Part shown: piece after piece, positions 10,696-27,265 of the stretch
Numbering within the stretch: position 1 is the first letter of the stretch
Layout: every line of letters starts with the position of its first letter
Assembly: GCA_002792135.1 (NCBI GenBank)
Contig: PFNU01000141.1
Coordinates: 1 to 28,526 of the forward strand
Direction: 5' to 3'
DNA length: 28,526 nucleotides
Source of the DNA: a bacterium (Candidatus Torokbacteria) CG_4_10_14_0_2_um_filter_35_8
GTDB taxonomy: Bacteria; Patescibacteriota; GCA-2792135
The notes under the pieces: model-generated
What the model saw: only the letters and a program-made list of their open reading frames with translations
What the model was told of the DNA's origin: nothing
The model's database searches: none
Made by a program: the position numbers and the translations under genes

Positions 10696-10733
10696 AACCC
10701 CGTAAAACGGGGTAAGCCCCATAAAACGGGGTA
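10696..10733. repeat. Tandem CCCCGTAAAACGGGG hairpins just downstream of rnpB (possible terminator role)
   Basis: aaccccgtaaaacggggtaagccccataaaacggggta: two copies of a GC stem-loop. Confidence 0.6.
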
Positions 10734-10737
10734 AACA

Positions 10738-11209
10738 AAAAACCAGGCGATGAATAAGCCGGATTTTGTATGGGGGCCCGTAGAACGGGCCAGGCAATCA
10801 TTTATCTAGGCCCTAAATTACTCCAGGGCTCAAGCGGTTAATCCTCCGTAGCTTCATATGAAGGAGGACACTAACCTCGCACCAGGTAGGGTTTACCACA
10901 TCCTGATATTGCTACCAAGATAAGAGGATTTTACCCCTCACTTTTCACCTTTTGCCGACAGGCATCCGCCGAAGTCCGCCTGTGGCGGACGAAGGCGAAA
11001 CCCACCAACTGTATAGTCTCTGTGGCACTTTCCCTAGGATTTGAAATCTTTAAAAGAAGTCTATAGAACTTCTGTTAAAAATTTTTCTCTCGCCAGCCGT
11101 TAGCTGGTACCCTTTTTAATGCGCTTAAAGCGCGCATATGGTGTCCGGACTTTCCTCCCCTGCACTTATTGCAGTACAGAGGCGATTACCTTATTGCCTA
11201 GTTTTTTGC
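10738..11209 (-). ncRNA. rnpB: RNase P RNA
   Basis: Reverse strand contains GAGGAAAGUCCGG, AGUGCCACAGA, GGUAAACCC, GCUUGAG, UAGAUAAAUGAU and ACAAAAUCCGGCUUA. The 5' end (AAAACUAGGCAAU) pairs with the 3' end (AUCGCCUGGUUUU) as P1. Confidence 0.96.
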
Positions 11210-11253: not shown

Positions 11254-11439
11254 CTATACCATTCTTTTCAAAGTTTTTATAGCTTCTTCTGTGCTATCAA
11301 ACGGACCGACTAACCTTCCTTTTTTAATATCTTTATCCGCCTCTTTCTCTATTTTCTGCCATCTTTTACTCCAATACCACATCTGATCTTCAATAATATT
11401 TTGTTTAATATCTGTGTTCTTTATTCTTTTAAACTTCAT
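11254..11439 (-). CDS. Small protein resembling the C-terminal part of AbrB/MazE-type type II antitoxins; no DNA-binding domain
   Basis: DQMWYWSKRWQKIEKEADKDIKKGRLVGPFDS resembles the DQxWFWxxxWQxxExEAxxDIxxGRxxGPF tail I recall from such antitoxins. Confidence 0.55.
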   Translation of the reverse strand: MKFKRIKNTDIKQNIIEDQMWYWSKRWQKIEKEADKDIKKGRLVGPFDSTEEAIKTLKRMV

Positions 11440-12168: not shown

Positions 12169-12290
12169 GTCATTGCCATTCTATTCCGCCTGCAGCAGAG
12201 AAGAATCTTGCAACGTCATTGGACCTGACGGGATCCTTCTCCTCCTTCGCCTGCGGGCTACGGAGGATCAGGATGACGTGGTGTTTGGCA
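12169..12290. repeat. GTCAT(T/C)CTGA-type MITE-like palindromic element, copy 1
   Basis: gtcatt...gagaagaatc...gggatccttctc...ggatcaggatgacgtgg; shares long blocks with 14346-14470 in the same orientation. Confidence 0.75.
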
Positions 12291-12401
12291 GGCGTTTTTT
12301 GGGCATTAGTCATTCAGTCATTGGGATTTGATTAGAAATTGCTAATTGGAAATTGGACATTTGCAACCTCAATTCACAAATCAAAATTTCGGACTTAGAA
12401 T

Positions 12402-14345: not shown

Positions 14346-14470
14346 CGTCATTCTGATCCGCCCGCGGCGGAGAAGAATCCCACTGAATCTTGCAACGTCT
14401 TTTACCGCACGGGATCCTTCTCTGCCTTCGTCTGCGGACTTCGGCGGATCAGGATGACGTGGCGTTTGGC
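14346..14470. repeat. GTCAT(T/C)CTGA-type MITE-like palindromic element, copy 2
   Basis: Terminal inverted repeats cgtcattctga / tcaggatgacg. It supplies the TGA stop (14449-14451) of the NUDIX ORF. Confidence 0.78.
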
Positions 14471-14949
14471 AAAAGATTCTTCTGTCGCGGACCTTTTAGT
14501 ATCTCTTCAGCTTTTTCTAAAATCTTTCTCGTCTCTTTATATTCAATCTTTTTCTTTGCCTGCCTAAAACTTACCCATTTAAATTCTACAAAACCTTCTT
14601 CTTTCTGTAGCTTGGGCTTCTCTTTTCCTACAAATTTAAAAAGAAAATAATGGACAAATTTATTGTGTAAAATATTCTTTTCTTTTTCCATCTTAAAAAA
14701 ATAATGCTCTTGTCCTATCTTCTCCTCTGTTTTTAGGTGTTTTAAGCCAGTCTCTTCTGATACCTCTCTTTTTGCAGCATCTTTCAAAGATTCTTCCTTT
14801 TCAATCTGACCTTTGGGAAGAGTCCATCTTTTTTCGGTTTTAATCAATAGGATCTTTGGTTCGGTCTTTGTCTTTTCGTAAATTATGCCTCCTGCACTAA
14901 TGTCTAGAATGACTTTGGGTTTCTTTTTTGTTTTGTGAGGTTTGTTCAT
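14449..14949 (-). CDS. NUDIX hydrolase (Ap4A hydrolase-like)
   Basis: Nudix box GQIEKEESLKDAAKREVSEETGL = GX5EX7REUXEEXGU, plus SAGGII and WTLPKG. Probable start ATG 14949 (MNKPHK), within the longer ORF 14449-15105. Confidence 0.88.
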   Translation of the reverse strand: MNKPHKTKKKPKVILDISAGGIIYEKTKTEPKILLIKTEKRWTLPKGQIEKEESLKDAAKREVSEETGLKHLKTEEKIGQEHYFFKMEKEKNILHNKFVHYFLFKFVGKEKPKLQKEEGFVEFKWVSFRQAKKKIEYKETRKILEKAEEILKGPRQKNLLPNATSS

Positions 14950-27149: not shown

Positions 27150-27265
27150 ACTTTGTCTTTGTACAGAAGCTCGCATTTAATTCGTTCCTCTCATCCCGTT
27201 CAACGGGACTTAGTGTGGAATTCGAAACTAATTCGTATTCGGCCGTATAGCTCTTAATTCTAAAT

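What the first reader, a model, noticed from the sequence alone, without database searches (positions are those of the whole stretch)
10738..11209. RNase P RNA peripheral helices appear built from the genome's mobile mini-hairpin repeats
Seen: (a) In the P15/P16 position, the rnpB strand reads tcctccttc-atatgaa-gctacggagga (10868-10842). The intergenic element at 12240-12267 reads tcctccttc-gcctgcgg-gctacggagga, with 9+11 identical flanking nt. (b) The P12 tip carries gccttcgtccgccacaggcggacttcggcgga (10996-10965), matching gccttcgtctgcggacttcggcgga at 14424-14448. (c) The P19-position hairpin ggcccgtagaacgggcc (10775-10791) resembles the CCCGT/ACGGG hairpins at 10696-10733 and 27190-27212. 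Inference: selfish palindromes have colonised or been domesticated as variable helices of an essential ribozyme.
Basis: partly seen in the sequence, partly recalled or inferred. Interest (0 to 1): 0.75.

Follow-up and report, generated by a model that had tools for sequence, protein, structure and literature searches.

The report
Genome's hairpin repeats inside RNase P RNA
In this small groundwater bacterium, three outward-pointing helices of the essential tRNA-trimming ribozyme RNase P carry copies of the genome's own short GC-rich hairpin repeats; this adds a case to a known kind of event and shows how such RNAs can gain helix extensions.

Summary
rnpB is a type A RNase P RNA at 10739-11201 on the minus strand (165.6 bits). 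The only GC-rich repeat words in it lie at the P12 tip (10999-10965) and the P15/P16-17 arm (10868-10842). The P19-position hairpin (10791-10775) belongs to a 17-locus CCCGT-N3-ACGGG family.

These families have 14, 17, 75 and 17 loci in the 0.89 Mb genome. A reversed-genome control gives 0-1. Almost all copies lie outside long ORFs. Twenty-nine other rnpB genes of the phylum share 0-2 such words with this genome; this one shares 12.

The genome encodes one clear REP-associated tyrosine transposase and two weaker ones, so a REP-like mobile origin is plausible.

I could not show an empty site for this gene. The lineage is alone in its class, and six assemblies from other samples are identical. 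Other genomes of the phylum do show the process: one has an rnpB P12 insert with 75 further genomic copies, and congeneric or confamilial rnpB genes differ by inserts at P12, P15-17 and P19.

The kind is already known (Rickettsia RPEs in M1 RNA; STRR repeats in cyanobacterial P12). Earlier notes of this scan report similar cases in other genomes. Domestication is untested.

The parts
10739..11201 (-). rnpB, bacterial type A RNase P RNA, 463 nt
   Evidence: RF00010 at 165.6 bits (gathering score 100), E 5.7e-52, full model 1-367. The sequence is identical in six contigs assembled from other samples by ENA, Logan and JGI.
10954..11009 (-). Helix P12, a long hairpin. The proximal ~10 bp look native. 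The distal part is the repeat element.
   Evidence: Infernal alignment and ViennaRNA fold at -32.0 kcal/mol. P12 measures 67 nt between anchors, against 16-213 nt in relatives, mostly 20-40.
10965..10999 (-). Family B-type hairpin at the P12 tip: TTCGCC-TTC-GTC..GAC-TTC-GGCGGA
   Evidence: 12+13 flanking nt are identical to C112:4271-4299. The 16-nt right arm GCGGACTTCGGCGGAT is built of 11-mers with up to 16 genome copies. Family B has 17 loci, 0 in the reversed control. The segment is covered by a metatranscriptome contig spanning 10878-11124.
10975..10989 (-). Nested family C mini-hairpin TCCGCC-ACA-GGCGGA, in place of the TGCG loop of family B
   Evidence: 75 loci of TCCGCC-N3-4-GGCGGA, 0 in the reversed control, 72 of them outside long ORFs. 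An exact 17-nt copy lies at C137:2007.
10836..10876 (-). P15 arm. Without the 27-nt element it reduces to a plain P15 hairpin (GGTTA-GTGT-TAACC).
   Evidence: Infernal alignment and fold. Several rnpB genes of the phylum have only a 19-27-nt P15 hairpin at this position.
10842..10868 (-). Family A-type hairpin in the P16/P17 position
   Evidence: 9+11 nt are identical to 12240-12267 and to seven further copies. Family members have variable centres, for example C121:2687. 14 loci, all outside long ORFs, 0 in the reversed control.
10775..10791 (-). Hairpin at the P19 position (between P2' and P4'), a member of the CCCGT-N3-ACGGG family
   Evidence: 17 loci against 1 in the reversed control. The 13-nt core is identical at C35:4105 and C63:8293. 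Four loci carry the longer GCCCGT/ACGGGC stem, one of them at the 3' end of a RAYT-like ORF on C107.
10696..10733 (-). Two tandem CCCCGT-TTTA-YGGGG hairpins just 3' of rnpB, terminator-like and related to the same stem family
   Evidence: Sequence reading. One of the two is in the family list.
11119..11137 (-). Extra hairpin between P5 and P7. Not a repeat.
   Evidence: A 19-nt insert relative to the model, folding at -8.7 kcal/mol. No repeated words and no BLAST copies.
11040..11086 (-). AT-rich 47-nt extension of P9. Not a recognisable repeat.
   Evidence: A 47-nt insert in the Infernal alignment. No GC-rich repeat words and no BLAST copy over this stretch, RNA positions 116-162, other than one 20-nt AT-rich match at E 0.095.
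12240..12267 (+). Intergenic consensus copy of family A, inside a ~100-nt composite element (about 12200-12295)
   Evidence: No Rfam family matches at E<=1.
14422..14448 (+). Intergenic copy of family B, inside a composite element (about 14370-14475)
   Evidence: No Rfam family matches at E<=1.

Best explanation
The gene is a working-looking type A RNase P RNA whose outer helices have taken up copies of the genome's REP-like mini-hairpins.

Shown: three hairpins of the RNA are members of dispersed, almost entirely extragenic hairpin families of this genome. They are the P12 tip, the arm on P15 at the P16/17 position, and the P19-position hairpin.

Inferred: the hairpins entered the gene as DNA, into or next to existing terminal loops. 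They were probably moved as single-stranded hairpins by a REP-associated tyrosine (Y1/HUH) transposase. Copying from other loci by template switching or gene conversion is a possible alternative.

A palindrome placed in a terminal loop simply lengthens that helix coaxially, away from the catalytic core, so the ribozyme tolerates it. The P12 tip is a nested or hybrid copy, with a TCCGCC-type hairpin sitting where the TGCG loop of the outer hairpin should be. This matches the nesting seen in intergenic copies.

The P15 loop was probably free to accept an insert. Only 4 of 32 tRNA genes encode CCA, and the CCA-binding motif of that loop is not evident.

Whether the inserts are now useful, for stability or tertiary contacts, is not known.
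For: 1. rnpB identity, and placement of the three segments in peripheral columns.

2. The families are real. A has 14, B 17, C 75 and CCCGT-type 17 loci, against 0-1 in the reversed genome. 14/14, 15/17, 72/75 and 15/17 lie outside ORFs of 100 or more codons.

3. With rnpB masked, rnpB has 12 GC-rich 11-mers that occur 3 or more times elsewhere in the genome. Twenty-nine other rnpB genes of the phylum have 0-2. By the related unmasked count (4 or more copies), rnpB has 14/453, 16S 4/1486, 23S 5/3087 and tmRNA 1/421, against a genome background of 0.7%.

4. Long exact flanks: 9+11 nt for family A, 12+13 nt for B, a 17-nt exact copy for C and a 13-nt exact copy for the P19 hairpin.

5. The rnpB copies are the deviant ones. 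The intergenic copies share the consensus, with compensatory stem variants: TCCTCC/GGAGGA against TCCGCC/GGCGGA, and GCC/GGC against GTC/GAC. Similar hairpins with the same TGCG loop occur singly in another family of the phylum, outside rnpB. This argues for repeat-to-rnpB transfer.

6. The genome has a RAYT gene on C140 (NF047646, 108 bits, cut-off 80), flanked by inverted REPs. Two weaker RAYT-like ORFs exist, one ending in a GCCCGT-type hairpin.

7. The same process is seen in the phylum:
- The G008 rnpB P12 insert has 75 further copies in its genome.
- The G006 P19-position insert has 6 further copies and is absent from confamilial G033.
- The G022 P9 insert has a 90% identical copy elsewhere.
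- Congeneric G008 and G035 share a 93% identical core but carry different inserts at P12 and P15-17.
- A compact control rnpB has no extra copies.

8. It is not an assembly artefact. Six contigs from other samples are identical over 660 nt.

9. 4 of 32 tRNA genes encode CCA.

10. RNA-library contigs cover the P12 element with 0-1 differences.
Against: No empty site was found for this gene. The genome is the only member of its class among those held. The nearest neighbour-gene homologues are at most 49% identical. Strain variants are identical. Insertion and its direction are therefore inferred.

The elements are very short, and BLAST support alone is marginal.

Families A-C and the CCCGT family have not been shown to flank a RAYT gene, and no target-site duplication was seen, so the link to the transposases is circumstantial.

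CCGCC/GGCGG stems are common in P12 of many bacteria (Rfam consensus). The innermost 15-nt hairpin alone is therefore weak evidence.

The centre of the P16/17 element differs from the family consensus in one block, not by scattered changes. That pattern could also mean an old native P17 with repeat-like flanks.

The RNA evidence is from contigs at depth 2.6-2.8 and does not cover the P16/17 or P19 elements.
Confidence: 0.7

Rival explanations
1. Reverse direction. The P12 tip and the P16/17 arm are native rnpB helices, and fragments of them were captured and amplified as dispersed repeats, or copied outward by gene conversion.
For: No empty site is available. CCGCC/GGCGG-type P12 stems are typical of bacterial RNase P RNA. 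P16/P17 exist in some relatives.
Against: The rnpB copies are the odd ones out: a block-replaced centre in A and a nested loop in B. Meanwhile 8 intergenic A copies and 9 or more B copies share one consensus with a TGCG loop. Related hairpins occur in another family of the phylum, outside rnpB. No other rnpB of the phylum carries them.
Confidence: 0.1
2. Shared functional RNA motif. The hairpins have a 6-bp stem, a 3x3 internal loop UUC/UWC, a 3-bp stem and a UGCG loop. They could be a binding site or stabilising module selected independently in many transcripts, RNase P RNA among them, and not selfish DNA.
For: The stems show compensatory changes while the internal loop and tetraloop stay constant, also across genomes. 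Copies sit in conserved ~100-nt composite elements.
Against: The rnpB copies lack the conserved inner stem and UGCG loop that would define such a motif. Orientation relative to neighbouring genes is not fixed: 12240-12267 is antisense to its flanking genes. No Rfam family matches. Structure conservation is equally expected for hairpins recognised as DNA by a Y1 transposase (established for REP/RAYT, PMC3116915).
Confidence: 0.12
3. Chance or compositional convergence. In an AT-rich genome, stable helices of structural RNAs must be GC-rich, so they resemble other GC-rich hairpins.
For: The stems are short (5-6 bp). BLAST E-values are only 0.008-0.3. A TCCGCC-type hairpin also sits at the tip of a 16S helix.
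Against: Exact flanks of 20-25 nt with the right spacing. 12 shared words against 0-2 in 29 control rnpB genes, and far fewer per base in 16S, 23S and tmRNA. Reversed-genome controls give 0-1.
Confidence: 0.04
4. Assembly artefact. Repeat hairpins were wrongly joined into the rnpB contig of a metagenome bin.
For: The genome is a 148-contig bin and the repeats are abundant.
Against: Six contigs from other samples and other assemblers are identical over rnpB plus flanks. The elements, at 15-35 nt, are shorter than reads. DNA and RNA-library contigs span the P12 element.
Confidence: 0.02

Closest known systems
Rickettsia palindromic elements (RPE) inserted in the tmRNA and M1 (RNase P) RNA genes (Ogata et al. 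2002, as reviewed in PMC2229807)
   Same: A genome's dispersed palindromic repeat sits inside the rnpB gene and is tolerated. The repeats also occur elsewhere in the genome.
   Different: From my own knowledge, RPEs are about 100-150 bp and often lie in frame inside protein genes. Here the units are 15-35-nt mini-hairpins that are nearly all extragenic. They occupy three helices of one gene, and one copy is nested. The host is a groundwater Patescibacteria-like lineage.
[quoted passage not shown]
   Same: The lineage's own short repeats make up the distal part of P12. P12 length is dispensable there.
   Different: STRRs are tandem heptamers, not palindromic hairpins, and involve P12 only. I could not read the paper itself.
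REP / REPIN elements mobilised by RAYT Y1 transposases (PMC3116915, PMC3337134)
   Same: Short GC-rich extragenic palindromes in tens of copies, forming composite and nested arrays. A RAYT gene flanked by inverted REPs is present in the genome.
   Different: Families A-C and the CCCGT family are not the REP that flanks the clear RAYT. REPINs are described as extragenic, and residence inside a ribozyme gene is not part of that description.
Diverged RNase P RNAs of CPR bacteria with large helix extensions and a missing UGG motif (Lui et al. 2021, PMC8172020)
   Same: Same radiation, judged by neighbour names, genome size and habitat. Enlarged or missing peripheral helices and no obvious CCA-binding motif.
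   Different: In the passages I read, that paper describes the extensions but does not trace them to genomic repeats.
Accretion / expansion-segment model of RNase P RNA (PMC12974513)
   Same: Helices grow by insertion at loops while the older core stays unchanged.
   Different: That model is phenomenological and concerns deep time. In a term search of its text I found no mention of transposons or palindromes as the source of the inserted RNA.

Membership tests
Bacterial RNase P RNA class A (RF00010) | Covariance-model score above the curated gathering score over the full model | tested here: met
   165.6 bits against 100, model positions 1-367.
Bacterial RNase P RNA class A (RF00010) | Conserved core strands: P4 (GAGGAAAGUCCGG and ACAnAAnCCGGCUUA), J11/12, J12/13 and J18/2 | tested here: met
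   All are aligned with high posterior probability.
Bacterial RNase P RNA class A (RF00010) | L15 GGU/UGG motif that pairs with the tRNA 3'-CCA | tested here: inconclusive
   No clear motif next to P15. This fits 4 of 32 tRNA genes encoding CCA and the motif's absence from 23 of 35 CPR RNAs (PMC8172020).
REP/REPIN-RAYT system | Short imperfect palindromes, many copies, extragenic | tested here: met
   14-75 loci per family, 0-1 in the reversed control, 88-100% of loci outside long ORFs.
REP/REPIN-RAYT system | A RAYT (Y1/HUH) transposase gene in the genome | tested here: met
   C140:69-629 scores 108.4 bits on NF047646 (cut-off 80). Two further ORFs score 69 and 56 bits, below the cut-off.
REP/REPIN-RAYT system | The repeat family flanks its RAYT gene in inverted orientation | tested here: not met
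   This holds only for a different REP, the AGTCCCCTGACT type with ~9 copies. It does not hold for families A-C. One GCCCGT-type hairpin lies at the 3' end of the weak RAYT-like ORF on C107.
REP/REPIN-RAYT system | Insertion or excision polymorphism, or transposition intermediates | tested here: inconclusive
   No variation among six assemblies of this locus. Presence/absence is seen only in other genomes' rnpB genes.
Repeat insertion in rnpB (RPE-in-M1-RNA type) | The segment inside rnpB is a copy of a repeat found elsewhere in the same genome and is absent from other rnpB genes | tested here: met
MITE | Terminal inverted repeats plus a target-site duplication | tested here: not met
   The elements are plain hairpins, and no duplication is seen at the three rnpB sites.

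The most novel reading that the evidence does not exclude
In Patescibacteria, mobile palindromic repeats could be the main present-day source of RNase P RNA expansion segments, with hot spots at the P9, P12 and P15 loops and the P19 position. Some inserts could then be co-opted. In this gene the family A hairpin would have rebuilt a P16/P17-like arm on a reduced P15. Its changed centre, CAUAUG at 10860-10855, is complementary to CAUAUG at 11140-11135 between P5 and P7, so it could restore a P6-like pseudoknot.
Probability: 0.2. Interest if true: 0.7.

Novelty: new member of a known kind. Interest (0 to 1): 0.5.

Why it matters
The finding gives a concrete, recent mechanism for how an essential ribozyme gains helix extensions: hairpin repeats land in terminal loops. 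It also offers an explanation for the unexplained 'large helix extensions' reported for CPR RNase P RNAs.

There is a practical side. Such inserts lower covariance-model scores and can hide rnpB in genome annotation. Because the inserts are genome-specific, they could serve as strain markers.

The idea itself is not new. Rickettsia and cyanobacteria are precedents, and this scan has noted similar cases in other genomes.

Tried and rejected
- **Closer relatives for an empty-site test: none found.** The class holds only this genome. Metagenome loci with the neighbouring sugar transferase are 41-46% identical and have no rnpB nearby. RecJ patterns found nothing in genome contigs. GAPDH relatives are at most 57% identical. 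The best homologue of the transferase among 5.8 billion proteins is 49% identical.
- **Strain variants:** six contigs from other samples are identical over 660 nt, so there is no polymorphism.
- **Laying runs:**
  - No contig lacks the hairpins.
  - Most short pieces come from other organisms' conserved rnpB segments.
  - The P16/17 and P19 elements have no RNA-contig cover from this organism. That is a gap in cover, not evidence.
- **Not found, no conclusion drawn:** rnpA (PF00825) and SRP RNA in this 85% complete bin.
- **Rfam** at E<=1 on the two composite intergenic elements: nothing.
- **BLAST** of rnpB against its own genome gives only marginal E-values. The case rests on word counts, patterns and controls.
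- **P6 pseudoknot idea (CAUAUG pair):** only suggestive. Part of the 5' partner is also predicted to pair in the P5/P7 hairpin, and a 5-6-nt AU-rich match is not improbable. I do not use it as evidence.
- **Generality is not universal.** G020's large rnpB has no genomic copies. G019 is borderline. G035's two inserts have no further copies in its genome.
- **Vioque 1997** could not be read.

Full report
**What is there.** Infernal finds one Rfam family in the window, bacterial class A RNase P RNA, at 10739-11201 on the minus strand. It scores 165.6 bits against a gathering score of 100 and covers the full model. The RNA is 463 nt, against a 367-position consensus. The extra length lies in five places:
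- a 19-nt hairpin between P5 and P7 (11137-11119);
- a 47-nt AT-rich extension of P9 (11086-11040);
- a 34-nt insert at the P12 tip;
- the arm on P15;
- a hairpin in the variable stretch between P2' and P4', the P19 position.

The core strands are intact.

**The host.** The genome is an 889,721-base, 148-contig bin with 34% GC, about 85% complete. It comes from groundwater or aquifer metagenomes. It is the only member of its class among the genomes held. Its phylum-mates are 0.4-2.1 Mb genomes. The nearest protein homologues carry names such as Patescibacteria, Parcubacteria, Falkowbacteria and Moranbacteria. I therefore read it as a CPR/Patescibacteria lineage, by inference.

**Checking the observation.** All three sequence claims are correct.

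The genome carries several families of GC-rich mini-hairpins.
- Family A is TCCTCC-TTC-GCC-TGCG-GGC-TAC-GGAGGA.
- Family B is TCCGCC-TTC-GTC-TGCG-GAC-TTC-GGCGGA.

A and B have the same architecture: a 6-bp stem, a 3x3 internal loop, a 3-bp stem and a TGCG loop. The two stems differ between the families by compensatory changes.
- Family C is TCCGCC-N3-4-GGCGGA.
- A further family is CCCGT-N3-ACGGG.

Locus counts are 14, 17, 75 and 17. A reversed-genome control gives 0, 0, 0 and 1. Between 88% and 100% of loci lie outside ORFs of 100 or more codons.

GC-rich 12-mers with many copies occur in rnpB only at the P12 tip and the P15 arm. With rnpB masked, it has 12 GC-rich 11-mers present three or more times elsewhere in the genome. 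Twenty-nine other rnpB genes of the phylum have 0-2. By the unmasked count (four or more copies), rnpB has 14/453 such words, 16S 4/1486, 23S 5/3087 and tmRNA 1/421.

**The three elements.**
- *P12.* The distal 35 nt (10999-10965) are a family B hairpin. Its flanks match C112:4271-4299 over 12+13 nt. Its TGCG loop is replaced by a family C hairpin (10989-10975), which has an exact 17-nt copy at C137:2007. The same nested design occurs at C17:6297 and C139:3574.
- *P15 arm.* The 27-nt element 10868-10842 shares 9+11 nt with family A. Other family members also have variable or nested centres. Without it the arm becomes a plain P15 hairpin, as several rnpB genes of the phylum have.
- *P19 position.* The hairpin 10791-10775 has a 13-nt core identical to two other loci. 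It shares its 6-bp stem with three more, one of them at the end of a RAYT-like ORF.

**Is it real DNA and real RNA?** Six contigs from other samples (ENA, Logan, JGI) are identical over 660 nt spanning rnpB. That excludes a binning or assembly artefact, but it also leaves no polymorphism to use. Contigs from two metatranscriptome libraries cover 10878-11124 and 10980-11156 with one and no differences. This includes the P12 element, but the depth is low and DNA carry-over cannot be excluded.

**Mobility and mechanism.** The genome encodes a clear REP-associated tyrosine transposase on C140 (108 bits against a cut-off of 80). It is flanked by inverted REPs of its own type. Two weaker RAYT-like ORFs are also present. 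REP and REPIN elements are thought to move as single-stranded hairpins through such enzymes (PMC3116915, PMC3337134). The link between these enzymes and families A-C is circumstantial.

I infer that hairpins landed in or beside terminal loops of the rnpB DNA. A palindrome placed there extends the helix coaxially and leaves the core unchanged. Only 4 of 32 tRNA genes encode CCA, so the P15 loop was probably under relaxed constraint. This fits the frequent loss of the UGG motif in CPR RNase P RNAs (PMC8172020).

**Direction of transfer.** Three points favour repeat-to-rnpB. The rnpB copies deviate from otherwise uniform consensus copies. Similar hairpins occur as single copies in another family of the phylum, outside rnpB. 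No other rnpB of the phylum carries them. No empty site is available for this lineage.

**The process seen elsewhere in the phylum.** I used each oversized rnpB as a query against its own genome.
- G008: the P12 insert has 75 further copies.
- G006: the long hairpin at the P19 position has six further copies, and it is absent from confamilial G033.
- G022: the P9 insert has a 90% identical copy elsewhere.
- G008 and G035, of the same genus: the core is 93% identical, but the P12 inserts differ. G035 also has an insert of about 100 nt in P15-17 that G008 lacks. The two G035 inserts share their termini.
- G019 is borderline, G020 has none, and a compact control has none.

Repeat insertion at these same rnpB positions is therefore recurrent in the phylum, though not universal.

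**Comparison with what is known.** Dispersed palindromic repeats inside rnpB are already reported for Rickettsia, where RPEs sit in the tmRNA and M1 RNA genes (PMC2229807). The lineage's own repeats are reported in the rnpB gene of heterocystous cyanobacteria (Vioque 1997, cited in PMC2858038). CPR RNase P RNAs with large helix extensions are described without an origin being given (PMC8172020). The accretion model of RNase P RNA describes growth by insertion but, in a term search of its text, names no source for the inserted RNA (PMC12974513).

Earlier notes of this scan report similar repeat-in-rnpB cases in other genomes, among them CPR, WOR-3, Clostridia and Planctomycetes. I did not test those and do not count them as support.

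**Verdict.** This is a new member of a known kind. Its particular features are three helices affected in one gene, very small REP-like units and one nested copy. The possible P6-like pairing of two CAUAUG blocks is speculation.

Noticed in passing
window 12200-12295 and 14370-14475; also C35:8686, C63:8384, C103:3548, C112:4272, C73:4702, C101:6859: The family A/B hairpins are usually the second stem-loop of a conserved ~100-nt composite element. The first is a 13-bp stem-loop, either GAAGAATCTCAAC..GTTGAGATCCTTC or a covarying GAAGGATCCCGTT..AACGGGATCCTTC. The hairpin follows, then TCAGGATGACG. No Rfam match. It could be a structured small RNA or a larger REPIN-like unit.
   Followed up: partly
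L015 (G008), L064 (G035), L010 (G006), L063 (G033), L030 (G022): Other genomes of the phylum have rnpB inserts at P12, P15-17, P9 and the P19 position. Some are copies of genomic repeats (75 copies in G008). The inserts differ between congeneric or confamilial genomes. G035 carries two inserts with the same termini, at P12 and at P15-17.
   Followed up: yes
L032 (G365:C3:61581), L042 (G286:C21:1569), L033 (G243:C12:38410): Single family A/B-like hairpins with the same TGCG loop but different outer stems occur in another family of the phylum. One follows a 12-nt duplicate of the 5' end of a tRNA gene that lies about 65 nt downstream. One is about 55 nt upstream of a tRNA-Leu-like gene (my reading of the sequence). 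One seems to lie inside an ORF.
   Followed up: no
C140:1-720 (L057): A REP-associated tyrosine transposase gene (187 aa), flanked by inverted REPs of the type GGGTA-GGCY-AGTCCCCTGACT-RGCC. This REP has about 9 copies in the genome.
   Followed up: partly
C25, 16S rRNA positions about 66-95: The tip of an early 16S helix reads TCCGCC-TTTT-AGGCGGA, which resembles the family C hairpin. This may be coincidence or another colonised loop.
   Followed up: no
window 10965-10997, runs X12 and X20: A 44-nt contig at 27-68x depth matches the P12 tip with 2 mismatches and 1 gap. This organism's own contigs are at about 4-5x. The same hairpin type is therefore abundant elsewhere in the community.
   Followed up: no
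window 11140-11135 and 10860-10855: CATATG occurs both right after P5 and in the centre of the P16/17-position hairpin. Being self-complementary, the two could pair as a P6-like pseudoknot.
   Followed up: partly
C121:2687-2880 and C25:12999-13199: Two tRNA-Ala genes are each followed, about 90 nt downstream, by a family A variant within similar flanking sequence. This looks like a duplicated segment and not two separate insertions.
   Followed up: no
window 11254-11439: A 61-aa ORF without a Pfam match lies just upstream of rnpB. It is called as a gene in the assemblies from other samples too.
   Followed up: no
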